The notes under the pieces are model-generated. The model was not told the origin of the DNA, ran no database searches, and saw nothing but the letters and a program-made list of their open reading frames with translations. A stretch of 64,000 bases of DNA from assembly GCA_963815115.1 (NCBI GenBank), contig CAWFFN010000012.1, positions 416,001 to 480,000 of the forward strand, in the 5' to 3' direction. A program made the position numbers and the translations under genes. Source of the stretch: an uncultured delta proteobacterium (lineage in GTDB: Bacteria > Desulfobacterota > Binatia > DP-6). Numbering within the stretch: the first letter of the stretch is position 1; each line of letters begins with the position of its first letter. Below, one piece after another: positions 27,410 through 39,454 of this stretch.

Positions 27410-29266
27410 TCAGACCGCGGTCTCGTCGAGGTAGCACCAGCGCCACGTCTCCCCGGGCTCCAGCGACCGCACGATCGGGTGCTGCGTCGCCCAGAAATGT
27501 GCGGTCGCATGGCGGTTCTTCGAGGAATCGCAGCAGCCGACGAAGCCGCAGGACAGGCAGACCCGGAGATGGACCCAGCGGGTCCCGAGCCGCAGGCATT
27601 CCTCGCAGCCGGCAGAGCGGGGCGCGATCGCACTCACCAGCTCGACGTGCGGGCATGCCACCACGACGGCGGTGTCGGCGGCTACGAGCCGGGCCGGCGC
27701 GGCCTCGATGGTGGCGGCCGCCGCGACGCCGCCGCCGATCGCGAGCAGGGCGGCCAGGACCGCGACGTAGCGGAAGCTCCCGACCAGCGCTCCGGCGACG
27801 GCTTCCTCGAGCGCGCGGGCCTGCGCCGGGCTCGCGCCAGCGGGGATGGACACGTCGCCGAGGCTTCCGGTCTGCGCCACCATGACGGACCGAACCGCCG
27901 GCGGGAGGTCGAGAGCGTCGACGCGGCTCGAGAGCGCGCGCGCAAAGACGCCGAGCGCGATGACGCCGACGATGGCGACGGCCAGGAGCGCCGCGACGCG
28001 GGCGACCGCGTTGTTCACCCCCGAGGCCACCCCGACCCGCGTCTCGTCGACCGCGGCCATCACCGTGCTGGTGAGCGGCGCGACGGTCACTGCCATTCCG
28101 ATTCCCACGACCACCATCGCAGGAAAGAACGTCGTCCAGTACGAGCCGCCGGCTCCCGGCAGCGCGAGGAGCAGAAAACCCGCCGCCGTGATCACCGGAC
28201 CGGCCACCAGCGGGAGTCGCGCGCCGAAGCGGTCGAGCAGTCCTCCGGCCCAGCGCGACAATACGCCGATGATGAGGGCGAACGGCAGGTAGGCGGCCCC
28301 CGTCATCGTCGCCGAGTAGCCGTGCACGCGAATGAGAACGAACGGCAGGACGAAGAAGATGCCGGTCAGCGCGAAGTAGACGAGGAACGTCAGCAGATTC
28401 GCACCGAGGAAGGTCGGGGAGCGGAAGAGGTCCGGGGGCATCATCGGGGACCGTATGCGCGCCTCGAGCAGGACGAACGCGACGAGGAGCGCGACGCCCG
28501 CGACCAGGGGAAGGAGCACGCTCGGCTGCGCGACTCCTCCGCTCGTGCCGCTGATGATGCCGAAGACGACGGTGGTGAGGCCCGCCGTGGCGAGACCGGC
28601 GCCCCACCAGTCGATGGAGGGAAGGCTGCCGCGGCCGATGCGCACGTCGGGCACGCGAGCGACCGCGATCGCCAGCGTGACGAGCGCGAGCGGGACCAGC
28701 AGGAAGAACGCCGCTCGCCAGGAGGCGGCGTCGACCAGCGCGCCGCCGAGGATCGGACCTCCCGCACCGGTGAGCGCCGTGAAGGCGGACCACGTACCGA
28801 TGGCTCGCCCGCGGGTGGCCTTCGGAAACGCGGCGCTCAGGAGGGCGAGGCTGTTGGGCACCAGCAGCGCACCCCCGAGTCCCTGTACGGCACGGGCGAC
28901 GATGAGCTGGGTGCCGTTCGAGGTCACGCCGGCCCCGGCCGACGCCGCCGCGAGGATCGCGAGTCCGAGGACGAACAGGCGGCGCCGCCCGAACCGATCG
29001 CCCAGGGAGCCGGACGCGAGCGTCAGGGCGGCGAGGAGCAGCGTGTAGACGCTGGCGATCCACTGCATCTCGCCGACGGTGGCGCCGAGGCCGCGCTGGA
29101 TCGCGGGGAGCGCCACGTTGATGATGGAGCCTTCGAGGAACGCGACGCTGGAACCGAGGATGGTGACCACGAGCACCCAGCCCCGGGCGTGCGCCGCGCA
29201 GCCGGGTGTCTCGGGCGCACCGCGCAGCACCCCGGCATCGCAGGGCGGACGGACGACGGTCAGCAC
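27410..29266 (-). CDS. DHA2-type MFS transporter fused to a C-terminal UBP-type zinc finger
   Basis: GSLGDRFGRRR and 14-TM pattern; tail CPH..CEEC..WVHLRVCLSCGFVGCCDSSKNRHATAH..WCYLDE. Confidence 0.9.
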   Translation of the reverse strand: MLTVVRPPCDAGVLRGAPETPGCAAHARGWVLVVTILGSSVAFLEGSIINVALPAIQRGLGATVGEMQWIASVYTLLLAALTLASGSLGDRFGRRRLFVLGLAILAAASAGAGVTSNGTQLIVARAVQGLGGALLVPNSLALLSAAFPKATRGRAIGTWSAFTALTGAGGPILGGALVDAASWRAAFFLLVPLALVTLAIAVARVPDVRIGRGSLPSIDWWGAGLATAGLTTVVFGIISGTSGGVAQPSVLLPLVAGVALLVAFVLLEARIRSPMMPPDLFRSPTFLGANLLTFLVYFALTGIFFVLPFVLIRVHGYSATMTGAAYLPFALIIGVLSRWAGGLLDRFGARLPLVAGPVITAAGFLLLALPGAGGSYWTTFFPAMVVVGIGMAVTVAPLTSTVMAAVDETRVGVASGVNNAVARVAALLAVAIVGVIALGVFARALSSRVDALDLPPAVRSVMVAQTGSLGDVSIPAGASPAQARALEEAVAGALVGSFRYVAVLAALLAIGGGVAAAATIEAAPARLVAADTAVVVACPHVELVSAIAPRSAGCEECLRLGTRWVHLRVCLSCGFVGCCDSSKNRHATAHFWATQHPIVRSLEPGETWRWCYLDETAV

Positions 29267-30149: not shown

Positions 30150-30980
30150 CTAGCCTTCGGAGAGCCGGAAGCGGACCGGAAACGTCACGCGGCTCTCGAC
30201 CGGAACGTTGCCGCGGCGCGCGGGCAGGAAGCGCCAGCGCGTCCGCACGGTGTCGAGCGCCGACTCGTCGAGCAGCGGCGACCCCGACGAGCTCTGCACC
30301 CGCACCTCGGCCGGGCTGCCGTCGGGCCGCACCAGCACCTCGAGCGTGACGACGCCCTCCACGCCGAGCCGGCGCGCTGCCAGCGGATAGGGCGGCTTGG
30401 GATTCGAGCCGTAGGCCGGACGCGCGGTCCCGTCGCTGCCGTCGCCGCCCGAGCCGTCGCCGGTTCCCGCACCGCCGCGGCCGGTGCCGCTTCCGCCGCC
30501 GGGACCGCCGAGGCTGCCGACGCGTTCCCCCGAACCGCTCGGGGAGGGCGCGGGAGCACCGGTGGCCGCAGCGGGCGCCGCCGGCTGCGGGCGGGAGGGA
30601 GCCGGAGCCGCGAGCGCTCGCAGGCTCGCGAAGGCGGTCGGGCTCGGGGTGGCCACTGCCACCGGCTTCGTCTGGGCGGTGGGTAGCGGCGGCGGTGGTG
30701 GAGAAGGCGCCGGAACGGCCAGGGGCTGGGAAGGCGCAGGCGGGCTGCCCGATCGGCCGAGCGCCGGGGACGGCGTGCCCGGCATCGGTCCCCCACCGCC
30801 TCCACCGGCCCGCGAGACGAGGCTCACCCGTATCAGCTTGGTCCTCGCCGTCTCCAGCTGACCGGCCAGCAGATCCACGAGGGGGACCGAGCGCAGGAGG
30901 AGCAGGAACATGGCGGCGTGGACGGCCGCCGAGGTGGCGAGCGCCGCCGTCAATCGCAGGCGCTGCTGCCGATCGGACAT
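30150..30980 (-). CDS. tonB: TonB energy transducer
   Basis: N-terminal TM with SAAVH, Pro/Gly-rich linker, C-terminal PPYP..ARRLGVEG..SSG..LLDESAL..WRF. Confidence 0.9.
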   Translation of the reverse strand: MSDRQQRLRLTAALATSAAVHAAMFLLLLRSVPLVDLLAGQLETARTKLIRVSLVSRAGGGGGGPMPGTPSPALGRSGSPPAPSQPLAVPAPSPPPPPLPTAQTKPVAVATPSPTAFASLRALAAPAPSRPQPAAPAAATGAPAPSPSGSGERVGSLGGPGGGSGTGRGGAGTGDGSGGDGSDGTARPAYGSNPKPPYPLAARRLGVEGVVTLEVLVRPDGSPAEVRVQSSSGSPLLDESALDTVRTRWRFLPARRGNVPVESRVTFPVRFRLSEG

Positions 30981-31051
30981 GGACGGCCCCCAGTCATAGG
31001 GACCATCGACTCGGGGGTGCAACCCGGGCGGAGAGAAGTCCATGCGAATCG

Positions 31052-33415
31052 TCAGAAGAACCAGGTGACTCCGGCGACGACCCCGATCGGGTTCCCGGGC
31101 GTGAAGTGGATGCTGTCGGCCGGCTGACCGGTCTTCACCGACGTTCCGTCGGGCAGGACGACCACGCCCTTCCCGGGCTTGAAGTAGCAGGGGGCGGCGG
31201 GGTTCCGCGTCTGCACCTCGCTCCGGACGCACGAGTTGTCGGAGAACTGCGCCTCGCGCCAGTCGGTGTCGGTCAGGTTCAGGAGCTGGAGCGAGAACTC
31301 GAGGTCGCGCCAGCGATAGCGCGCGAAGAGGTCGAGCAGGTAGTAGCCGCGCGCCGTCACCGTGTCATCCTCGTTGCCGGCGCGGTCGGACACGTAGCGG
31401 CCGCGCAGTGCCACCGTGAGGCCGTTGTGGAAGTCGGCGGTCAGGCCCCCGTTCATGAAGATCGGCACGGCGAGCGGCACGAACCCGCCGTCGGAGAAGC
31501 GCGCGTGGCTCCAGCTCAGGTCGTAGTCGGCGGAGAGCCAGTCGGTGATCTGCCAGCGGGCCTCGAAGTCGATCCCGTAGCGCCGGCTCGGCAGCGAGCT
31601 CGCCTCGTCGGTGCCGGCGTCGCCCGAGAACACCAGCTCGCTCCCCAGGTCGAGGTTCCAGAGGGCTGCGGCGAGGTCGAGCCGGTCGAACAGATGCGTG
31701 CGCCCGCCGAGCTCGTAGCCGAGCGCCTTCACCAGCGGCGTGGGCTGGGCGGCCGCGACGACACCCGAGCCCGAGGGGCCCGCGCCGGTGAACGCTCCGA
31801 TGACCGTCGAGCGGGCGTCGTTGGAGTGAAACCCGCGGCCGAAGTTGAGATAGATCTCGCTGTTCTCCACCGGCGTGATGATGAGGTTCGCCTTCGGGCT
31901 CGGCAGCCCGGCGGTGGTGCGGCCGTTCAGGAAGACCGCGTCGAAATTGGGGTCGTTGCCCTGCCTCGGCAGCCGGTCGTTGACGTCGAAGACGTAGAAG
32001 TCTCCGCGCAGGCCACCCTCGAAGCGGAGCCAGTCGGTGAAGAAGATCTGCTGCGCCCAGAAGCCGCTGAAGGAGTGCTCGCGGATGTACACGTCGTTCA
32101 CCGTGAAGAAGCTCGTGCGGCGGACGGCGCGCTGCAGCTTCAAGTGGATGTCGTCCGTGCGGGTCTCGAGCGCGAGCTGGGTCTGCTGCGGGACGCTCGC
32201 CAGGAACCAGTTCTTCGTGTAGCTCCCGCGCCCGCCGAACACGTAGCGCTTGTCCCCCTGGTAGATCTGGTCACCGGGGATGTACCTCGCGTTCGGCAGC
32301 AGCGGACCGTCGCCGGTGTCCTCGATCCCGCCGCCCGGGAACTGCACGAAGCGCAGACCGCTGTTGGCGAAGAACGTGAAGTCGGACCACAGGCGGAGCT
32401 TGTAGCGCTGCGCGTAGCCGTGCACCTCCCACGTGTCCGTCGCGGTCGGGGTGTAGCGCCAGTCGAGGAGGAGGTTCTGGCGGTCGGTGCGCCCGCCCTC
32501 CGTCGGGTCGATGGAGCCGAACTGGTCGAGCTTTCCCTCCGCCACGAGACGCGCGGGGATCTGCCCCGAGCCGTCCCAGTCGGCGGCGTAGCCCTGCACC
32601 GTCGCCGACAGCTTCGAGTCCGGCGTGGGATCGAGCGTCACCCTGCCCTGACCGTTGTAGCGCGCCAGGTTCTCGGGATGGATGAAGGGGCCGTTGGTGT
32701 AGAACGCCTGCCCGGCGAACAAGGTCTTCACGTTGCCGAGCTGGGGTGAAGCGCCGAAGACGTAGCGCATGGTCTGGAAGGAGCCGCCCTCGGCCTTCAC
32801 GAAGTTCTCCTTGAACTCCTCCTTCGTAATCAGCTTGACCGCGCCGGCAGTGGCGAAATCGCCGAACTGCGGAAAGTACGGCCCCTTGTAGAGCTCGACC
32901 CGGTCGATCACCTCGGGAATGAGGAAGTTCGGGTCGGCGTAGCCCTGTCCGTGCGCGTGCGACACCAGGTTGATCGGCATGTCGTCGGCATAGACGGCGA
33001 CGTCGGTGCCGTGGTCGGCGTCGAAGCCGCGCAGGAACCACTGCGGCGCCTTGGAGCCGCCCTGATGCTGGGCGACCAGCAGCCCGGGGATGTTGTTGAG
33101 CACCTGCATGATGGTCAGGTGCGGGCGCTCCATGAAGTCCCTGGCGCGCAGCTCGCGCGACGACGCCGCCGACACCGGGCGCTGCGCCTCGACCACCAGC
33201 TCCTGCAGGCGTGTCTCGCCGCCCTGCCGCGCCGGCGAGGTCTGACCCGAGTCCTGTCCCGCAGGCGGATCCTCGCAGCGATCGCCGGCTGGCTGGCCGG
33301 CGGCGTCGGCGGCGTCCGGCTGGCGCGCGTCGTCCGCGGCCCGCACCGCTGCGGTGCAGACGAGACACGAGATCGTCATCGCGAAGAAGGCCGTTCCGGC
33401 TTTCCCCGGTCGCAT
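31052..33415 (-). CDS. TonB-dependent receptor, probably Ni/Co uptake
   Basis: Signal peptide, TonB-box-like ELVVEA, plug QHQGGSKAPQWFLRGFDADHGTD and SHAHGQGY, terminal Phe; near tonB and nikR. Confidence 0.9.
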   Translation of the reverse strand: MRPGKAGTAFFAMTISCLVCTAAVRAADDARQPDAADAAGQPAGDRCEDPPAGQDSGQTSPARQGGETRLQELVVEAQRPVSAASSRELRARDFMERPHLTIMQVLNNIPGLLVAQHQGGSKAPQWFLRGFDADHGTDVAVYADDMPINLVSHAHGQGYADPNFLIPEVIDRVELYKGPYFPQFGDFATAGAVKLITKEEFKENFVKAEGGSFQTMRYVFGASPQLGNVKTLFAGQAFYTNGPFIHPENLARYNGQGRVTLDPTPDSKLSATVQGYAADWDGSGQIPARLVAEGKLDQFGSIDPTEGGRTDRQNLLLDWRYTPTATDTWEVHGYAQRYKLRLWSDFTFFANSGLRFVQFPGGGIEDTGDGPLLPNARYIPGDQIYQGDKRYVFGGRGSYTKNWFLASVPQQTQLALETRTDDIHLKLQRAVRRTSFFTVNDVYIREHSFSGFWAQQIFFTDWLRFEGGLRGDFYVFDVNDRLPRQGNDPNFDAVFLNGRTTAGLPSPKANLIITPVENSEIYLNFGRGFHSNDARSTVIGAFTGAGPSGSGVVAAAQPTPLVKALGYELGGRTHLFDRLDLAAALWNLDLGSELVFSGDAGTDEASSLPSRRYGIDFEARWQITDWLSADYDLSWSHARFSDGGFVPLAVPIFMNGGLTADFHNGLTVALRGRYVSDRAGNEDDTVTARGYYLLDLFARYRWRDLEFSLQLLNLTDTDWREAQFSDNSCVRSEVQTRNPAAPCYFKPGKGVVVLPDGTSVKTGQPADSIHFTPGNPIGVVAGVTWFF

Positions 33416-33503
33416 GGCACATCCCCTCCCCGAACGATCGATCGCTCTACGGAGGCACTCCGCACTCGGATGAGGCTCCCGCGATCGTGAGAACGAGATC
33501 AGC

Positions 33504-33989
33504 TCACCGGGGCGAAGGAGGGGCGCGGGATCGGCTCGGGACGGCGACGGCGACGACGTGCCGTTCGCGGGTGGCGCCGGCCAGCAGGGCTACCGGCGCC
33601 GGGCGCGGGAGATGGATCCGTCTGGCCGGAGCGACGCGGTGAAAGGGCGAGGTCGCGCGCGCGTGCCAGGTCCACGGGACCCCCGCGGTGCGCAGCGCGC
33701 AGCCGCGGTCGCCATCGGGGTCGGATCCCGTGTTCGCATGGTCGTGGTCGTGATGGTGGAGCGCCGCCGTCTCCGCCGGCCCGAGGTGCACGTGCGGTCG
33801 GGAGCCTCCGGCGTGGCGATGAACCTCGAGCCCCGCCGGCTGCGTCGACACGGCGGCGGCGAAGCAGATCAGCACCAGCGCGGCGCCGCGAGACCTCGTG
33901 CTCCTGCGCCGCGCGCGCTGGCCGGCGACGTGCGCCGAGCCGGCAGGTCGGCACGGCGCTCGCGCGATCCGCTGCCGGGCAGCGTCCAT
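33504..33989 (-). CDS. His-rich exported leader protein with C-terminal RAPP motif (DUF2946/CruR-like architecture)
   Basis: Hydrophobic segment AALVLICFAAAVS; HRH..HVH..HHHDHDH; ends RSRAPPSPR; 88 nt upstream of the TonB-dependent receptor. Confidence 0.7.
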   Translation of the reverse strand: MDAARQRIARAPCRPAGSAHVAGQRARRRSTRSRGAALVLICFAAAVSTQPAGLEVHRHAGGSRPHVHLGPAETAALHHHDHDHANTGSDPDGDRGCALRTAGVPWTWHARATSPFHRVAPARRIHLPRPAPVALLAGATRERHVVAVAVPSRSRAPPSPR

Positions 33990-34014
33990 CGCCGCGGTGT
34001 AACACCATTCCCGG

Positions 34015-34041
34015 GTGGCACGAAAGTGCCAGTCGTAACAC
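34015..34041. promoter_or_regulatory. Candidate NikR operator
   Basis: GTGGCAC-N13-GTAACAC against the recalled deltaproteobacterial consensus GTGTTAC-N13-GTAACAC; a second GTAACAC at 33999-34005. Confidence 0.6.
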
Positions 34042-34086
34042 CGTCACATCGTGACGCGGCATCCCGCTCCGCCAGACCGCGCGCAG

Positions 34087-34575
34087 CTATCCGAGGCCTT
34101 TTCCGGTCGTCGCCAGGGTCAGGCGGCCGTGCTTCACCCCGCGCGTCGCGATGAGGCGATCGGCGAGCGCCCGCAGCCGCCGGGCACGGCCGCGCACGAC
34201 GAGCACCTCGAGACAGTGGTCGGCATCCATGTGCACGTGGAGCGCCGAGACGATCTCCGCGTAGGAGCGATGCTGGGCCGCCATCAGCCGGCCGGGCAGC
34301 AGCCGGGCATGGTGGTCGTAGACGAGGGTGATGGTGGCGACCGTCTCCGAGTCGCCGGTCTCCCACTCCTCCTCGACCAGGCCCTCGCGGACGAGGTCCC
34401 GAACCGCCTCGGAGCGGTTGGGGTACTCGCGCCGGGCCACCCATCGGTCGAGGCGCACGAGGAGGCGCTCGTCCATCGCCAGGCCGAACCGGACCAGATG
34501 CCCCGTGGCGTCGCGCGAGCGAGCACGCCGGCGCCGCGGTGGCGCCGCATGTCGGTGTTTACCGTTGGCGGACAT
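34087..34575 (-). CDS. nikR: Nickel-responsive transcriptional regulator
   Basis: RHH domain VRFGLAM..YPNRSEAVRDL; LVYDHH, HVH..HCLEV, GVKHG. Homology begins near 34505, so the start is uncertain. Confidence 0.93.
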   Translation of the reverse strand: MSANGKHRHAAPPRRRRARSRDATGHLVRFGLAMDERLLVRLDRWVARREYPNRSEAVRDLVREGLVEEEWETGDSETVATITLVYDHHARLLPGRLMAAQHRSYAEIVSALHVHMDADHCLEVLVVRGRARRLRALADRLIATRGVKHGRLTLATTGKGLG

Positions 34576-35741: not shown

Positions 35742-35936
35742 TCAGTGCCCGTGGTGATGGTGCTCGTCGTGGTCGTGGTCGTGGTGGCTGTGGGTCACGC
35801 CGTCGTGCGTGTGCTCGTGTGTGTGCTTCCCGGGCGCCTGGCCGCCGTGCGAGTGTTCATGGTGTCCGTCGTCGTGAACGTGCTCGTGGCTGTGCGTCAC
35901 CTTGTCGTGCTGATGTGGGTGCTGGTGCTGGCCCAT
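35742..35936 (-). CDS. 64-aa poly-histidine protein, candidate metal store or chaperone
   Basis: 26 of 64 residues are His in HxH repeats; strong GGAGGAGG RBS before ATG 35936. Confidence 0.85.
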   Translation of the reverse strand: MGQHQHPHQHDKVTHSHEHVHDDGHHEHSHGGQAPGKHTHEHTHDGVTHSHHDHDHDEHHHHGH

Positions 35937-35962: not shown

Positions 35963-36688
35963 TCAGCCCTGGACGGTGCCGACCAGTACGATCGGGCCGG
36001 TGGGACTCTTCGAGCCGCCGGCCGGCTCGATGGACACCGCGAAGGCCGTGATCTCGGTGGGTCGCTCCAGCTTCGCGACCTGCGTCAGGTAGACGGCGCG
36101 GCCGCTCACCGCGAGCAGGCCGGCCGGCTCCGGCGGGGCATCGCCGCGCAGCGCCCACAGCTCGTAGACCTTGTTCGGGTCGAGCGCCTGGACGTCGGCC
36201 AGCACCACGGCGCCCTCGCCGGTCGCGGCGTCGACCTGGACGCGGCCGCTGCCGCTGAAGCCTTCCTTCGCCCCCAGCGATGCCGACAGGGTACGTGGGC
36301 CACCCATGATGCGCAGCGCGCGTGCCTGGGCGTCGAGCGACTCGCGCAGGCTGGCGAGCGTCCGGTCCTGGGTATCGAGGCGCGCCGTCAGCTCGGCGTT
36401 GGCGCGACCGAGGGACGCGAGCTCGTCGAGCTCGCGGTGACGGAGACCGCGCTCGCGTGCCAGCAGGCCGCCGAGGGCCAGGGCGACTGTCGCGGCGAGC
36501 GCGCCGACGGCGAGCCAGCGCGTCCGCGATCGGCGGGTCGCCGCCGTCGCGACCTCGGCGCGCGCGGTCGCGATGACGCGGCGGCGAAGCGCCGCAGGTG
36601 GCGTCGCGGCGTAGGCCTCGGCCAGCGTCTCGAGGGTGAGATCGTCGAGCGCGCGGTCGTCGACGCCTATGGTCTGCTGGTCAGGCAT
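35963..36688 (-). CDS. Anti-sigma factor, RskA-like
   Basis: PPAALRRRV, one TM, coiled coil, [22 protein letters not shown]. Confidence 0.9.
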
Positions 36689-37241
36689 GAGCTTCCTTCT
36701 GCGCGAGGTGCGCGCGCAGCTTGAGCACGCCGTCGCGGATGCGCGTCTTGACGGTGCCGAGCGGCATCTGCTCGCGGGCGGCGATCTCGCTGTGCGTCAG
36801 CTCCTCGAAATACGCGATCTCGATGGCGCGCCGCTGCTCCTGGGGGAGCGCGGCGAGCGCCTCGCGGACGAGCGCGGCGCGCTCCGCGCGCGCCACCGCG
36901 TCGTCGGGACGCTCGGGCGCCGGTACGATGTCGCCCGGGTCCGAGCTGCGCTTCTCCGCTCGATCGCGCGAGCCGCGCGCGCGGAGGTGGTCGATGACCA
37001 GGTTGCGCACCAGGCGCAGAAACCATGCCCGCGGGCCACCGCGTCCCGGATCGAAGCGTTCCGCACGGCGCCACACGCGCAGGAACGCCTCCTGCACCGT
37101 ATCCTCGGCCAGGTCGGAGTTGCCCGCGATGCGCAGCGCGAGGCCGTAGGCGAGCGGCGAGAGCCGGTCGTAGAGCTCGCCGAGCGCGCGATCGTCGCCC
37201 CGTGCCACGCGGGAGAGGAGCGCCGTCTCGATGTCCGCCAC
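36681..37241 (-). CDS. ECF RNA polymerase sigma factor, SigK-like
   Basis: [43 protein letters not shown]. Confidence 0.93.
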
Positions 37242-37262
37242 GTCGGCCAGCGTCGTCTTCTC

Positions 37263-38000
37263 CTAGACCAGCAAGCCCGCGTCGATGCCGATCTCCCAGG
37301 CGAGCAGGAGGCCGACGGCGATGCTCCCCACGCCCGCCGCGGTACGCAGCGCGAGATCGACGCGAGCGAAGCGCGCGCCGGCGAGGACGAACGGCACGCC
37401 GAGGAGCGTGCTCATCATCATCATCCCGCCGATCGAGCCCACGCCGAAGACGGCGATGTAGGCGAACGCGACCGCGGGGCTGGGGATGGTGGCCAGTACG
37501 GCGAGCATCAGCGCGGCGCTGCCCGCGAGCCCGTGGACGAGCCCGACCAGGAACGGGCGGCGCGCGTTCACCATCGGATGGTGGACCGGATGGTGGTGCG
37601 GCTCGGCGGGGGGTTCGCCGGCGGCATGGACGTGCGCGTGGACGTGGTGGTGGCGGCCGTGCTCGTGGGCGTGCACGTGGAGCGTCGCACCGCGGCGGAT
37701 GGTGCGCAGGAGGTTGAGACCGAGGACGATCAGCATCACGGCCACGCCGAGCTCGAGCCCCTGTGCGAGGCGCGGCGGGATCTCGGTGTGCAATGCGATC
37801 ACCACGACCCCGGCGATGAGCAGGGACGCGGTGTGGCCGAGCCCCCACACGGCACCTACCAGCGACGACCGCCACAGGCTGCGACGCTGGCTCACGATGG
37901 TCGACACCGCCGCCAGGTGGTCGACGTCGAGCGCGTGCCGCAGCCCGAGCACGAAGCCGAGACCGAGCACGGCGAGCGGGCTGGTCGACGGCGCCATCAC
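37263..38000 (-). CDS. UreH/NiCoT-like nickel permease
   Basis: RHALDVDH, WGLGH, His-rich loop, GLVHGLAGS. Confidence 0.85.
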   Translation of the reverse strand: MMAPSTSPLAVLGLGFVLGLRHALDVDHLAAVSTIVSQRRSLWRSSLVGAVWGLGHTASLLIAGVVVIALHTEIPPRLAQGLELGVAVMLIVLGLNLLRTIRRGATLHVHAHEHGRHHHVHAHVHAAGEPPAEPHHHPVHHPMVNARRPFLVGLVHGLAGSAALMLAVLATIPSPAVAFAYIAVFGVGSIGGMMMMSTLLGVPFVLAGARFARVDLALRTAAGVGSIAVGLLLAWEIGIDAGLLV

Positions 38001-39454
38001 GCGGCCATCTGCGCCAGGGCTTCGACCACGACGGCGAGCCCGGCCAGAGAGATGACGACGGCGCTGGCCACCGGGGCGTAGCGCGCGAAGCGGCCGTCGA
38101 GGGGCAGCCGGTCGACGAGACCGCGGGCATAGACCAGGACGATGCCGATGCCGGTCAGCACGGCGGCCAGCCCGATGCTGAACGCGACGATGAGCGCGAG
38201 CCCGAAGGCGACACGCCCGAGCGCGATGGCGCCCAGCATCACGACCAGGGCGGACGGGCAGGGCAGCAGCCCGCCCGAGATGCCGAGGGCGACGAGGCTG
38301 CGGAGGGTGATCGGCGTGCCGGGCGGCGGAAGGTGATCATGACCATGATCTTGGCCGTGAGCATGCCCATGATCGTGGTCGTGGTGATGGTGATCATGCG
38401 CGTGGTCGTGGTCGTGATGATCGTGATGGTGGTGCTGGCCCGCCGCCACGTGCAGCCGGGACATGGCGAGCGATGCGCCCACGGCGACCACGAGCAGACC
38501 CGAGATCACGCTGATCCAGGGAAAGAGCCGTTCGGGCACGATCCAGGCCGACGCTGCCAGCGTGCCGAGGCCGAGCAGGTAGACACCGAGCGTGTGCGTC
38601 GCGGTCACCACGAGCCCGAGGAGCAGCGCATGGCGTGCCGTGCCGCGTGATCCGACGAGATAGGCTCCGACCACCGTCTTGCCGTGTCCGGGCGTGAGGG
38701 CGTGCAAACCCCCGAGCATCGCGGCGACGATCAGCGAGGTGAGGATGGCCCAGGGGCCGAGCGGCGTCGGATTGGAGATCAGCGCGGTGAATCGGTCGCC
38801 GAAGCGCTCGGCGCTGCTCCGCGCGGCCGCAGGCGGCGCGGCGGTCCCGGTCGATGCGGTGTTGGCGCCGATGGTGAAGTGCGCTGCGGACACCTGGAGC
38901 GGCGCCTGCAGCATGCTGTCGGGGTAGGCGCGCAGGGCGCGGCTGACGTCGGCGGCGGGAACCGTCGAGCCCCGGAGGCTCATGCCGTTCCCGGCGGCGA
39001 CCACCTCCTGCCAGCCCGGACGGCCGGCGAAGTTGTGGTCGCGGAACACGACGTCGCCGTCGGGCCGCGGCAGCTCGGCTCGATACGTGACGTCGAGCCG
39101 CAGCGTCCTCAGGCCGCCCGCACCGGGGGCCAGCTCGAGCGTCGAGGCGATCGGCGTCGGCGCCAGTGCCACGCCGTCGCGTGTGAGCTCGAGCCCGCGC
39201 GCCAGCTCGGCTGCCTGTCGCGCCGTGTAGGCGTCGCGCTCGGCTGCATCGATGGCGCCGTTGCCGTCGGTGTCGACGAGTCCGATCTCGCGGTAGGCGG
39301 GGAGCTCGGCCAGATCGACCACGTAGGCGATGCGCACCGCCTGCGGCTCGACGGTGAGCGCGGCGTAGCGATTGGTGGTGAAGTTGCCGAGCGGATGGGC
39401 TCCGGCGATCGCCGAGACGGCGAGGACGGCCAGCGTGGTGAGCCAGCTCTTCAT
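37997..39454 (-). CDS. RcnA/HoxN-like Ni/Co transporter with N-terminal extracytoplasmic domain
   Basis: Signal peptide then HPLGNF; EF-hand-like DTDGNGAID; HALTPGHGKTV, His-rich loop, GLLPCPSA. Confidence 0.87.
   Translation of the reverse strand: MKSWLTTLAVLAVSAIAGAHPLGNFTTNRYAALTVEPQAVRIAYVVDLAELPAYREIGLVDTDGNGAIDAAERDAYTARQAAELARGLELTRDGVALAPTPIASTLELAPGAGGLRTLRLDVTYRAELPRPDGDVVFRDHNFAGRPGWQEVVAAGNGMSLRGSTVPAADVSRALRAYPDSMLQAPLQVSAAHFTIGANTASTGTAAPPAAARSSAERFGDRFTALISNPTPLGPWAILTSLIVAAMLGGLHALTPGHGKTVVGAYLVGSRGTARHALLLGLVVTATHTLGVYLLGLGTLAASAWIVPERLFPWISVISGLLVVAVGASLAMSRLHVAAGQHHHHDHHDHDHAHDHHHHDHDHGHAHGQDHGHDHLPPPGTPITLRSLVALGISGGLLPCPSALVVMLGAIALGRVAFGLALIVAFSIGLAAVLTGIGIVLVYARGLVDRLPLDGRFARYAPVASAVVISLAGLAVVVEALAQMAA

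What the first reader, a model, noticed from the sequence alone, without database searches (positions are those of the whole stretch)
33415..34041. His-rich RAPP arrest-peptide leader gating a NikR-linked TonB-dependent receptor
Seen: a 161-aa ORF with a hydrophobic export segment, a His cluster (HRH, HVH, HHHDHDH) and C-terminal RAPP (33527-33516) lies 88 nt upstream of the receptor. Its CCCCTCCTT (33523-33515, within and just past the RAPP codons) is complementary to the receptor SD GGGGAGGGG (33431-33423), 9 bp including two G-U pairs. Known: RAPP is a ribosome arrest motif (ApdA/ApdP), and DUF2946 leaders such as Bordetella CruR use CxxC plus RAPP to control a copper TonB-dependent transporter. 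Inference: this is a His-based, nickel- or cobalt-sensing counterpart. A stalled ribosome would free the SD, and metal binding by the exported nascent chain would release the stall, adding translational control on top of NikR repression.
Basis: partly seen in the sequence, partly recalled or inferred. Interest (0 to 1): 0.85.

Follow-up and report, generated by a model that had tools for sequence, protein, structure and literature searches.

The report
Histidine-type ribosome-stalling leader before metal receptor
A small gene in front of an outer-membrane import receptor encodes a histidine-rich peptide ending in the ribosome-stalling motif Arg-Ala-Pro-Pro; it belongs to a conserved but unnamed family and most likely acts as a metal-sensing (probably nickel or cobalt) switch of a kind already shown for copper.

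Summary
On its own it is at chance level: the genome has 321 short ORFs with R[AG]PP near their stop. Comparison makes it real. A profile search found 87 protein clusters. Of 90 sequences, 81 end in RAPP, RGPP or RSPP, and none of those 81 has CxxC. In 26 of 29 genome loci a homologous TonB-dependent receptor follows on the same strand.

The second His motif lies exactly 38 residues before the Arg of RxPP in 78 of 80 members, while the gap between the two His motifs ranges from 23 to 143. CruR has the same kind of fixed spacing (45 residues).

The family matches no Pfam or NCBIfam model and is not DUF2946.

The proposed pairing of the RAPP codons with the receptor's SD is the dominant predicted structure here and in two close relatives. 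It holds in only 14 of 28 loci overall.

NikR adjacency is clade-specific. NicO transporters and a His-rich miniprotein nearby point to nickel or cobalt.

The kind is in print: RAPP uORFs before TonB receptors, and His-only CutF-like leaders. This scan also noted similar leaders on other DNA. Verdict: a well-supported new family within a known kind. Metal identity and switch direction are inferred.

The parts
34087..34575 (-). nikR (162 aa; ribbon-helix-helix plus NikR_C nickel-binding domain)
   Evidence: Pfam NikR_C E 1.9e-29 and RHH_1. NCBIfam NF003381 187.8 bits against a cut-off of 105.
33999..34056 (-). Conserved block in the nikR-leader spacer; candidate operator or promoter. It holds two GTGTTAC direct repeats and the palindromes GTCAC-N3-GTGAC and GGCAC-N4-GTGCC.
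   Evidence: The block is nearly identical in the metagenome relative L051 while its flanks have diverged. GTGTTAC occurs only twice in the 64-kb window, both times here. GTGTTAC-N(10-40)-GTGTTAC occurs once in the 6.9-Mb genome, here. Its function was not tested. No sigma-70-like promoter was found.
33504..33989 (-). Leader gene: 161-aa His-rich peptide ending in RAPPSPR*
   Evidence: Translation. Homologues at 65-68% identity. 87 clusters found by profile search. Found in 78 of 301 genomes of the class. pN/pS is 0.66 against L051.
33828..33887 (-). Export or anchor segment (residues 35-54), preceded by an Arg-rich N-terminal extension that relatives lack
   Evidence: Hydropathy and charge. 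The AF2 model has a helix at 19-48. 63 of 74 family members have a 15-residue window with KD >= 1.6 before motif 1. Signal peptide versus anchor was not resolved.
33786..33821 (-). His motif 1, HRHAGGSRPHVH (H57, H59, H66, H68)
   Evidence: H57, H59 and H68 are invariant and H66 and G61 are >= 90% conserved in the 74-sequence alignment.
33738..33758 (-). HHHDHDH cluster (residues 78-84) inside the variable acidic, His-rich stretch
   Evidence: H82 is >= 90% conserved. The length of this stretch varies: the gap between motifs 1 and 2 is 23-143 residues.
33639..33665 (-). His motif 2, HARATSPFH (family consensus HxHxQxPF[HQ]). Here the second His is replaced by Arg111.
   Evidence: H109 is invariant and position 111 is His in >= 90% of members. 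The motif ends exactly 38 residues before the Arg of RxPP in 78 of 80 members. The second motif position lies 43 residues before that Arg in 22 of 25 genome loci.
33516..33527 (-). RAPP arrest motif, codons CGC GCC CCT CCT; it also forms the anti-SD-like strand
   Evidence: R155, P157 and P158 are invariant. Counts are RAPP 41, RGPP 32, RSPP 8 of 90. CCT makes up 4.7% of Pro codons in this genome. Pairing with the SD has probability 0.35-0.67.
33416..33503 (-). 88-nt leader-receptor spacer
   Evidence: Family spacers are 63-133 nt. There is no intrinsic terminator and no Rfam family. A C>G bubble spans the leader's last 45 nt and its stop in 26 of 26 loci.
33423..33431 (-). Shine-Dalgarno GGGGAGGGG of the receptor
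   Evidence: Its opening energy falls from 14.6 to 10.1 kcal/mol when the footprint of a ribosome stalled at RAPP is blocked; control blocks give 16.1 and 15.8.
31052..33415 (-). TonB-dependent receptor (787 aa) of an uncharacterised subfamily
   Evidence: Plug plus TonB_dep_Rec_b-barrel. It is far below every NCBIfam equivalog cut-off. Only the plug resembles solved BtuB or CirA.
30150..31049 (-). TonB-like protein directly after the receptor (true start uncertain)
   Evidence: TonB_C E 5.7e-24. A TonB homologue follows the receptor in 9 of the 20 extended loci.

Best explanation
The 161-codon ORF is a genuine cis-acting leader gene of the CruR/CutF kind, built on histidines instead of cysteines.

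Proposed sequence of events:
1. Its product starts with a positively charged, hydrophobic export or anchor segment.
2. It carries two HxH-type motifs that probably come together as a metal site.
3. After a spacer of fixed length it ends in RAPP, which stalls the ribosome with Pro157 in the P site and Pro158 in the A site.
4. While the ribosome sits there it covers the C-rich RAPP codons that otherwise pair with the receptor's Shine-Dalgarno sequence. It also covers the C>G stretch on which Rho could load. The receptor and TonB genes are therefore expressed.
5. When the metal is plentiful, it binds the nascent chain. Motif 2 has by then just left the exit tunnel, about 45-48 residues from the peptidyl-transferase centre.
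6. Metal binding folds the chain, and the resulting pull releases the stall. The ribosome terminates, the SD is masked again (and/or Rho terminates), and receptor synthesis stops.
7. In this genome the metal is most likely nickel or cobalt. NikR adds transcriptional repression on top.

Shown here: the gene family, its motifs and spacing, its pairing with the receptor gene, and the predicted RNA pairing. Inferred: stalling itself, metal binding, the metal's identity, the direction of the switch, and the compartment where sensing occurs.
For: Family and motifs:
- Two metagenome homologues at 65-68% identity both end in SRSRAPPIPS.
- A profile search found 87 clusters. Of 90 sequences, 81 have R[AGS]PP within 15 residues of the C-terminus, most often 5 residues before the stop.
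- H57, H59, H68, H109, R155, P157 and P158 are invariant in 74 sequences.
- The family is present in 78 of 301 genomes and 47 of 119 genera of the class (this tally includes one unpublished genome, G185).

Link to the receptor:
- 26 of 29 loci have a homologous receptor directly downstream on the same strand, with spacers of 63-133 nt.

Fixed spacing:
- The distance from motif 2 to the Arg of RxPP is 38 residues in 78 of 80 members, although the spacer sequence is not conserved. The gap between motifs 1 and 2 varies from 23 to 143.
- CruR has a fixed 45-residue CXXC-RAPP spacing that matters for regulation, RAPP 3 residues from the C-terminus, and a long spacer before a TonB-dependent transporter (PMC9426467, sections 9-11 read).
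- CruR arrest at RAPP was shown in vitro (PMC12992588, passages read).

Structure model:
- AF2 pairs strand 54-58 (motif 1) with strand 108-112 (motif 2), at low confidence: pLDDT 67.

SD masking:
- The SD opening energy falls by 4.5 kcal/mol with the stalled footprint blocked, and not with control blocks.
- The footprint is the main predicted SD partner here (0.61), in L051 (0.51) and in G002 (0.71), although the SD and codon sequences differ among the three.
- Both Pro codons here are CCT, which is 4.7% of Pro codons. The first Pro codon ends in A or U in 11 of 28 loci, against a 9.3% background.

Nickel or cobalt context:
- NikR is adjacent here, in L051, and (downstream, leaderless) in L085.
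- Two NicO-family transporters with His-rich loops and a 64-aa protein that is largely His lie upstream here. NicO homologues also lie upstream of the leader or receptor in L064, L066, L069, L076 and L084.
Against: - No experiment or RNA data bears on stalling or regulation.
- SD masking by the stall site is not general. In 14 of 28 loci the SD's main predicted partner lies elsewhere. In the opening-energy test only 11 of 26 loci gain more than 2 kcal/mol, against 5 of 26 for each control, and four loci go the other way.
- Even with the footprint blocked, the SD here still costs 10.1 kcal/mol to open.
- C-rich Pro codons and a G-rich SD are complementary by composition. The fold is no more stable than its shuffles.
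- This copy has Arg where at least 90% of the family has the second His of motif 2, so its metal site may be atypical or weakened.
- It also carries a 30-residue N-terminal extension that relatives lack.
- Outside this clade neither NikR nor NicO accompanies the module, so the family's metal is not established. One member precedes a DUF4198 gene, a family described in print as a periplasmic zinc capture protein (PMC12663993, abstract seen in the listing).
- pN/pS of 0.66 against L051 shows only weak overall constraint.
- The AF2 model is of low confidence.
- The loci are related, so the codon-bias binomial test overstates its significance.
Confidence: 0.6

Rival explanations
1. The arrest leader is the same, but it works only as in CruR. 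The stalled ribosome blocks Rho loading or access on the C-rich end of the leader, and metal-triggered release allows Rho-dependent termination in the spacer. The RAPP-codon:SD complementarity is a by-product of Pro codons facing a G-rich SD.
For: The CruR model and its data: bicyclomycin sensitivity, and an in-vitro Rho terminator mapped to a C>G bubble (PMC9426467 discussion). A C>G bubble peaks from -45 to +15 around the leader stop in 26 of 26 loci, then flips to G>C. There is no intrinsic terminator. Spacers are long, 63-133 nt. SD masking is seen in only 14 of 28 loci.
Against: The C>G excess is largely forced by the Pro, Ala, Arg and His codons. In this clade the SD's main partner is the stall site in 3 of 3 loci, despite sequence change. 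Rare A/U-ending Pro codons sit exactly where they complement the SD. Rho dependence cannot be read from sequence.
Confidence: 0.25
2. The polarity is that of CutF. Metal bound by the already exported part of the chain slows export and prolongs the pause at the Pro-rich end, so metal switches the downstream gene on rather than off.
For: CutF works this way, with SRP-dependent cotranslational export and a stem-loop shielding the RBS of cutO (PMC9973294, abstract read). The leader has an N-terminal export segment. Motif 1 and the His/Asp-rich stretch lie 70-100 residues from RAPP, far enough to be outside the cell membrane at the stall.
Against: The controlled gene is an uptake receptor with TonB. 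Induction by plentiful metal makes little physiological sense and would oppose NikR repression. The strictly fixed spacing concerns motif 2, which at the stall is only just out of the tunnel. That fits folding-driven release better than a periplasmic brake.
Confidence: 0.1
3. The small protein is mainly a working periplasmic or membrane-anchored metal-binding partner of the receptor (a metallochaperone or metal buffer). The C-terminal RAPP only tunes its own yield or its coupling to the receptor.
For: It has conserved His motifs and an export segment. His-rich proteins serve in nickel storage and trafficking in Helicobacter (papers seen only in the listing). A separate 64-aa His-rich protein is encoded nearby.
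Against: The invariant R-x-P-P lies 2-6 residues before the stop in 74 of the 81 sequences that carry it, and the length-fixed but sequence-free 38-residue spacer points to the ribosome, not to a folded domain. The model is mostly disordered. R[AG]PP is avoided in ordinary genes of this genome: 3.4 against 13.4 per 100,000 residues for A[AG]PP. CruR is described as short-lived and weakly translated.
Confidence: 0.08
4. The ORF is a chance open frame in G+C-rich DNA, and RAPP is a chance tetrapeptide.
For: 321 short ORFs in this genome end with R[AG]PP within 12 residues of the stop. The leader has no Pfam or NCBIfam hit. No RNA data exist.
Against: The family is conserved, with invariant residues, fixed spacing and conserved gene order across 47 genera.
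Confidence: 0.01

Closest known systems
CruR (Bp2923) of Bordetella pertussis, prototype of Pfam DUF2946 (PF11162); Roy et al. 2022, PMC9426467
   Same: A small first gene of the operon with an N-terminal export signal. A metal-ligand motif lies at a fixed distance from a C-terminal RAPP: 45 intervening residues in CruR, and 43 from the second position of the HxH motif here. RAPP lies 3 residues before the stop. A long spacer precedes a TonB-dependent transporter. The stall keeps the transporter gene on.
   Different: No sequence or profile similarity beyond the RAPP tail. The ligands are His, not CXXC (0 of 81 sequences). The likely metal is not copper. It occurs in a different bacterial class. 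A built-in SD:RAPP-codon pairing is predicted here, whereas CruR is reported to act through Rho and to use frequent codons for RAPP. True DUF2946-like CxxC...RAPP leaders coexist in the same class.
CutF of Rhodobacter capsulatus and 'CutF-like' proteins (Ozturk et al. 2023, PMC9973294)
   Same: An exported nascent sensor with a C-terminal Pro-rich stalling motif and an RNA structure shielding the next gene's RBS. The paper's survey already reports His-only clusters (SSN 14 and 17) next to HupE/UreJ genes and suggests nickel or cobalt sensing.
   Different: The downstream gene here is a TonB-dependent receptor, not HupE/UreJ or CutO. The expected polarity is opposite, with metal switching the gene off. 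Whether this family is in that paper's list D could not be checked because the supplements are closed. The ORF here is 161 aa, above that survey's filter of under 150 aa; relatives are 131-145 aa.
RAPP/RGPP arrest peptides: ApdA, ApdP, and the survey of RAPP/RGPP uORFs (PMC12992588; PMC10951233 seen in listing only)
   Same: R-A/G-P-P near the C-terminus, a localisation signal, and a position upstream of TonB-dependent receptor genes. [quoted passage not shown] R[AG]PP is depleted in ordinary genes, as measured here too.
   Different: Those papers, as far as the passages read go, do not describe this His family, its 38-residue spacing or a NikR link. Their source data and appendices were not available.
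NikR-repressed TonB-dependent nickel uptake (for example Helicobacter FrpB4; recalled, not read here)
   Same: A nickel regulator gene lies next to a TonB-dependent receptor with its own TonB.
   Different: No leader peptide is known there. The receptor here is not detectably close to any characterised receptor. The NikR operator here is only a candidate.

Membership tests
DUF2946 / CruR (PF11162) | Match to the Pfam model | tested here: not met
   No hit for the leader at E <= 1 or for 4 members at E <= 10. 0 of 74 members match at E <= 0.01. A six-frame search of the own genome with PF11162 gave no match. hhalign of the family against three DUF2946-like leaders of the same class gave probability 0.5%, with only the RAPP tail aligned.
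DUF2946 / CruR (PF11162) | Invariant CXXC copper motif | tested here: not met
   0 of 81 RxPP-bearing sequences have CxxC, and 38 of the 81 have no Cys at all.
DUF2946 / CruR (PF11162) | C-terminal RAPP a few residues before the stop | tested here: met
   The leader ends RAPPSPR*. 81 of 90 sequences have R[AGS]PP within 15 residues of the end.
DUF2946 / CruR (PF11162) | Fixed spacing between the metal motif and RAPP (45 +/- 2 in CruR) | tested here: met
   The spacing is 38 residues from the end of motif 2 in 78 of 80 members, which is 43 from the second position of HxH in 22 of 25 loci. It is analogous to CruR, not identical.
DUF2946 / CruR (PF11162) | RAPP-dependent ribosome arrest and metal-dependent release | not testable with these tools
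   This needs toeprinting or in-vitro translation and reporter assays.
CutF-like proteins (operational definition of PMC9973294) | [quoted passage not shown] | tested here: inconclusive
   PP in the last 15 residues: met. Same-strand gene 88 nt downstream: met. Length is 161 aa from the only available start, so not met here, though relatives are 131-145 aa. A signal peptide is suggested by hydropathy and charge, but no predictor was available.
RAPP/RGPP arrest-peptide uORFs upstream of TonB-dependent receptors (PMC12992588) | A small ORF with RAPP or RGPP near the C-terminus, a localisation signal, and a TonB-dependent receptor directly downstream | tested here: met
   The arrest itself was not tested.
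NikR regulon | A NikR operator in the promoter of the controlled genes | tested here: inconclusive
   A conserved block with palindromes and a genome-unique GTGTTAC-N29-GTGTTAC repeat lies between nikR and the leader. No known NikR consensus could be tested against it, and L085 shows no such motif.

The most novel reading that the evidence does not exclude
Three leader families with no detectable sequence similarity to one another share one molecular ruler. They are the CxxC type (DUF2946), this HxH type, and a second His type found before receptor homologues in records titled as Myxococcota. In each, the last metal ligand sits 42-45 residues before the Arg of RAPP, which places it just outside the ribosomal exit tunnel at the moment of stalling. 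Metal-induced folding of the nascent chain at the tunnel exit would then be a general, convergently evolved way for bacteria to sense different metals by translation.

In this locus it would be a nickel or cobalt sensor that needs no protein regulator, layered on NikR. Its stall codons (rare CCU CCU) would be selected to double as the anti-Shine-Dalgarno strand for the receptor.
Probability: 0.3. Interest if true: 0.7.

Novelty: new variant of a known kind. Interest (0 to 1): 0.5.

Why it matters
Metal uptake control in bacteria is usually ascribed to DNA-binding repressors such as NikR, Zur and Fur. Leader peptides that sense a metal while still on the ribosome have been shown only for copper (CruR, CutF).

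This locus documents a conserved, unannotated histidine-based family of such leaders. It was found in about a quarter of the sampled genomes of an uncultured soil class. In this genome it is tied to a nickel regulator and to nickel/cobalt transporters.

Its strictly fixed 38-residue spacer gives a concrete handle on how metal binding is coupled to release of the ribosome. It can be tested by changing the spacing or replacing the HxH motifs. It also gives a functional lead (nickel or cobalt) for an uncharacterised subfamily of TonB-dependent receptors.

If the ruler shared with CruR holds generally, it could be used to find metal-sensing leaders for other metals by sequence pattern alone.

Tried and rejected
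- Membership in DUF2946 is rejected.
- Any Pfam or NCBIfam family for the leader: none.
- Known RNA element in leader, spacer or nikR-leader region: none at E <= 1.
- Intrinsic terminator or sigma-70-type promoter in 33350-34150: none.
- Extra thermodynamic stability of the 3' leader plus spacer: none, z = 0.59.
- The search for related loci with the 74-sequence alignment failed for lack of a conserved stretch.
- With the 4-sequence alignment it found no confirmed locus in genome contigs and 6 loci in metagenome contigs. Only L051 was used for the leader comparison. L052-L056 were fetched but not examined further.
- The contig of the closest protein homologue, P0005, was not recovered.
- Expression data: no RNA holder listed. 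No reads were laid.
- Earlier notes of this scan near this place or matching this sequence: none.
- The closest receptor relative, L084 (78-89% identity in pieces), has no full leader. It has only a 21-codon His-rich ORF, and its receptor reads in three frames. I left open whether this is decay or assembly error.
- A NikR operator could not be assigned. A sigma-54-like reading of CTGGCAC-N5-TGCC was considered by eye and dropped, because the spacing is one base short of the consensus as I recall it.
- Signal peptide versus membrane anchor could not be decided.
- A first run of the opening-energy script timed out and was repeated with a shorter context.
- The unpublished genome G185 (locus L034) was left out of the 29-locus counts, but it is inside the tallies.
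- My first motif regular expression was off by one. Its 'motif' counts there are void and are replaced.

Full report
**1. Observation**

The minus-strand ORF 33504..33989 encodes 161 residues. Its features, in order:
- an Arg-rich N-terminus;
- an uncharged hydrophobic run at residues 35-54;
- HRHAGGSRPHVH at 57-68;
- HHHDHDH at 78-84;
- WHARATSPFH at 108-117;
- the ending SRSRAPPSPR*.

The downstream gene is a Plug plus barrel TonB-dependent receptor. The upstream gene is NikR.

**2. Is it more than chance?**

Taken alone it is not.
- In this 71% G+C genome R[AG]PP turns up 41 times per 100,000 residues in frames that do not look coding.
- 321 ORFs of 60-260 residues carry it within 12 residues of their stop.
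- The local RNA fold is no more stable than its shuffles.
- In coding-like frames R[AG]PP is four times rarer than A[AG]PP (3.4 against 13.4 per 100,000). This is the avoidance reported in PMC12992588 (abstract and passages read).

The case therefore rests on comparison with relatives.

**3. The family**

- A word-based search gave two metagenome proteins, 68% and 65% identical, of 131 and 133 residues. Both end in SRSRAPPIPS.
- A relative's genome gave a third, of 135 residues, ending in RARAPPPPPSL.
- A profile of these four, run against 1.84 billion representatives, returned 87 clusters at E <= 0.001.
- Of 90 sequences in all, 81 have R-x-P-P within 15 residues of the end: RAPP 41, RGPP 32, RSPP 8. 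The commonest tail after it is 5 residues. The nine without it are fragments, read-throughs or variants.
- None of the 81 has CxxC, and 38 of them have no cysteine.
- In a 74-sequence alignment H57, H59, H68, H109, R155, P157 and P158 are invariant. P50, G61, H66, V67, H82 and position 111 (His) are at least 90% conserved. This window's copy has Arg at 111.
- No member matches a Pfam or NCBIfam model in a meaningful way.

**4. The spacing**

The end of motif 2 (HxHxxxPF[HQ]) lies exactly 38 residues before the Arg of RxPP in 78 of 80 sequences where both motifs could be located. The distance between motif 1 and motif 2 runs from 23 to 143. The spacer itself is not conserved in sequence (consensus).

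Counted from the second position of HxH, the distance is 43 intervening residues in 22 of 25 genome loci. One locus each gave 42 and 44, and one was a regular-expression mis-hit.

[quoted passage not shown] Adding five residues impairs copper control (section 9 of PMC9426467).

DUF2946-like leaders that I found in the same class have 45, 44 and 44 (my count on the translations).

A second, different His-rich leader family precedes more distant receptor homologues. The last ligand-like position there lies 42 residues before the Arg in 4 of 4 cases. For L093, L097 and L100 this comes from the script. For L092 the count is mine, on the printed sequence.

At a stall with Pro in the P site, these distances put the motif about 45-48 residues from the peptidyl-transferase centre. 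By general knowledge of tunnel length, that is just outside the exit tunnel.

**5. Gene order**

The profile finds the family in 78 of 301 sampled genomes of the class and in 47 of 119 genera. One of these genomes is unpublished.

In 29 loci (the unpublished one left out), 26 have a homologue of the receptor directly downstream on the same strand, at 31-67% identity apart from the window's own locus. The other three:
- one locus is cut by a contig end;
- one has only a remnant of the receptor;
- one has a DUF4198 gene instead.

A TonB gene follows the receptor in 9 of 20 extended loci. Beyond that the neighbours are unrelated metabolic genes. The conserved unit is therefore leader, receptor and often TonB.

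**6. Which metal?**

Within the window's own taxonomic family the module sits behind two NicO-family transporter genes, an ECF sigma factor and an RskA-type anti-sigma factor. This is seen in L064, L066, L076 and L084.

In this window the NicO proteins have long His runs. A 64-codon ORF with a strong SD encodes a peptide that is largely His (35742-35936).

NikR lies directly upstream of the leader here and in the close metagenome relative L051. In L085 a NikR gene lies directly downstream of a leaderless receptor homologue. In the other 28 loci no NikR lies within 1.5 kb upstream.

The receptor itself is far from any characterised or solved receptor.

Nickel or cobalt is thus the best guess for this clade. 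It is not established for the family.

**7. How the stall could act**

It continues for four more pairs into the Arg-Ala codons. A competing pairing (about 0.3) uses the codons just upstream. With 161 nt that competitor is the minimum-energy fold. Both partners lie under or next to a ribosome stalled at RAPP.

Blocking that footprint lowers the cost of opening the SD from 14.6 to 10.1 kcal/mol. Blocking equal windows 40 or 70 nt upstream does not.

In L051 and in a genome of the same genus (G002) the SD and the codons differ, yet the SD's main partner is again the RAPP codons or the two codons after them.

The two Pro codons here are CCT, which makes up 4.7% of Pro codons in this genome. Across loci the first Pro codon ends in A or U in 11 of 28 cases, against a 9.3% background. 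The loci are related, so that test is only indicative.

Family-wide the picture is mixed:
- the footprint is the SD's main partner in 14 of 28 loci;
- the opening-energy gain exceeds 2 kcal/mol in 11 of 26 loci, against 5 of 26 for each control, and four loci go the other way.

*(b) Rho.* The last 45 nt of the leader and its stop form a C>G bubble in 26 of 26 loci, followed by a G>C spacer. No intrinsic terminator is present. This matches the CruR model, but it is partly forced by codon content.

I regard (a) as better supported in this clade. I regard (b) as an open alternative or addition.

**8. Structure**

AF2 with the family alignment gives a low-confidence model (pLDDT 67, pTM 0.32). It has an N-terminal helix (19-48) and two short strands, 54-58 and 108-112. 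These are the two HxH motifs side by side. This fits a His site formed when motif 2 emerges from the tunnel. It is weak evidence.

**9. What is known**

- CruR: the stall at RAPP keeps a TonB-dependent transporter on, and copper releases it (PMC9426467, abstract and sections 9-11 read).
- CruR arrest shown in vitro, and RAPP/RGPP uORFs with signal sequences reported upstream of TonB-dependent receptors across Gram-negative bacteria (PMC12992588, passages read).
- CutF: an exported sensor whose pause opens a stem-loop over the next RBS. Its survey notes His-only clusters next to HupE/UreJ and suggests nickel or cobalt (PMC9973294, abstract and sections 10-12 read).

I searched the library for DUF2946 with TonB-dependent, for RAPP with arrest peptide, and for RGPP, TonB-dependent and histidine-rich. 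I found no description of this family, its spacing or a NikR-linked case. The supplements of these papers, which list the families, were closed, so I cannot exclude that members are listed there.

This scan has noted RAPP leaders before TonB receptors in other phyla, including a His-rich, Cys-free one in Bacteroidales. None matches this sequence.

**10. Verdict**

This is a real, conserved leader gene of a known regulatory kind. It belongs to an unnamed histidine-based family and has a striking fixed spacer. In this genome its context points to nickel or cobalt. Stalling, the metal, the direction of the switch and the compartment of sensing remain inferences. Named records holding the closest receptor homologues are titled Candidatus Binatia.

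Noticed in passing
window 35742-35936 (-): A 64-codon ORF with a strong SD encodes a peptide that is largely His (MGQHQHPHQH...HHHHGH*). It lies between the anti-sigma gene and the deoxyhypusine-synthase-like gene. Similar His-rich endings precede the leader in G003 (L076) and stand in place of the leader in L084. It may be a nickel-buffering miniprotein.
   Followed up: partly
window 35963-39454 (-): Upstream of the module lie two NicO-family transporter genes with long His runs, an ECF sigma factor and an RskA-type anti-sigma factor. The same four genes precede the leader or receptor in L064, L066, L076 and L084 (in L084 the second NicO gene gave no hit).
   Followed up: partly
window 33999-34056: The nikR-leader spacer holds GTGTTAC-N29-GTGTTAC, which is unique in the 6.9-Mb genome, plus two perfect short palindromes. 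All of it is conserved in L051. It is a candidate NikR operator or promoter that does not resemble the operators I recall.
   Followed up: partly
L092, L093, L097, L100 (upstream of the receptor match): More distant receptor homologues, in records titled Polyangia, Kofleriaceae, Myxococcales and 'Proteobacteria bacterium', are preceded by a different His-rich leader family (WLLGVEV...LAHHAxAL...). It ends in RAPP or RGPP, with 42 residues between the HH/HF position and the Arg.
   Followed up: partly
L057, L058, L061: Leaders with CxxC and RAPP at 44-45 residue spacing exist in genomes of the same class, one of them just at the DUF2946 Pfam cut-off. Cys-type and His-type leaders therefore coexist; G029 has both.
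   Followed up: partly
L076 (G003), L064 (G019), L023 (G020), L084: Several relatives carry decayed modules. The leader and receptor are frameshifted in G003. The receptor is reduced to a signal peptide fused to its last residues in G019. Its N-terminal half is missing in G020. In L084 the receptor reads in three frames and only a 21-codon His-rich ORF remains. Assembly error is not excluded.
   Followed up: no
L085 5460-5909: A NikR gene lies directly downstream of a receptor homologue (52% identity) that has no leader. Upstream are a LysR-like gene and a small gene (my reading of the ORF translations; no family search was run). This is a second, different NikR-receptor arrangement.
   Followed up: partly
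L068 8534-9286 (G036): Here the leader is followed by a DUF4198 gene instead of a receptor. This family was recently described as a periplasmic zinc capture protein.
   Followed up: partly
window 27410-29266 (-): An MFS transporter is fused to a C-terminal zf-UBP zinc-finger domain, downstream of the receptor-TonB-oxidoreductase genes. The same order is kept in G003. The fusion is unusual.
   Followed up: no
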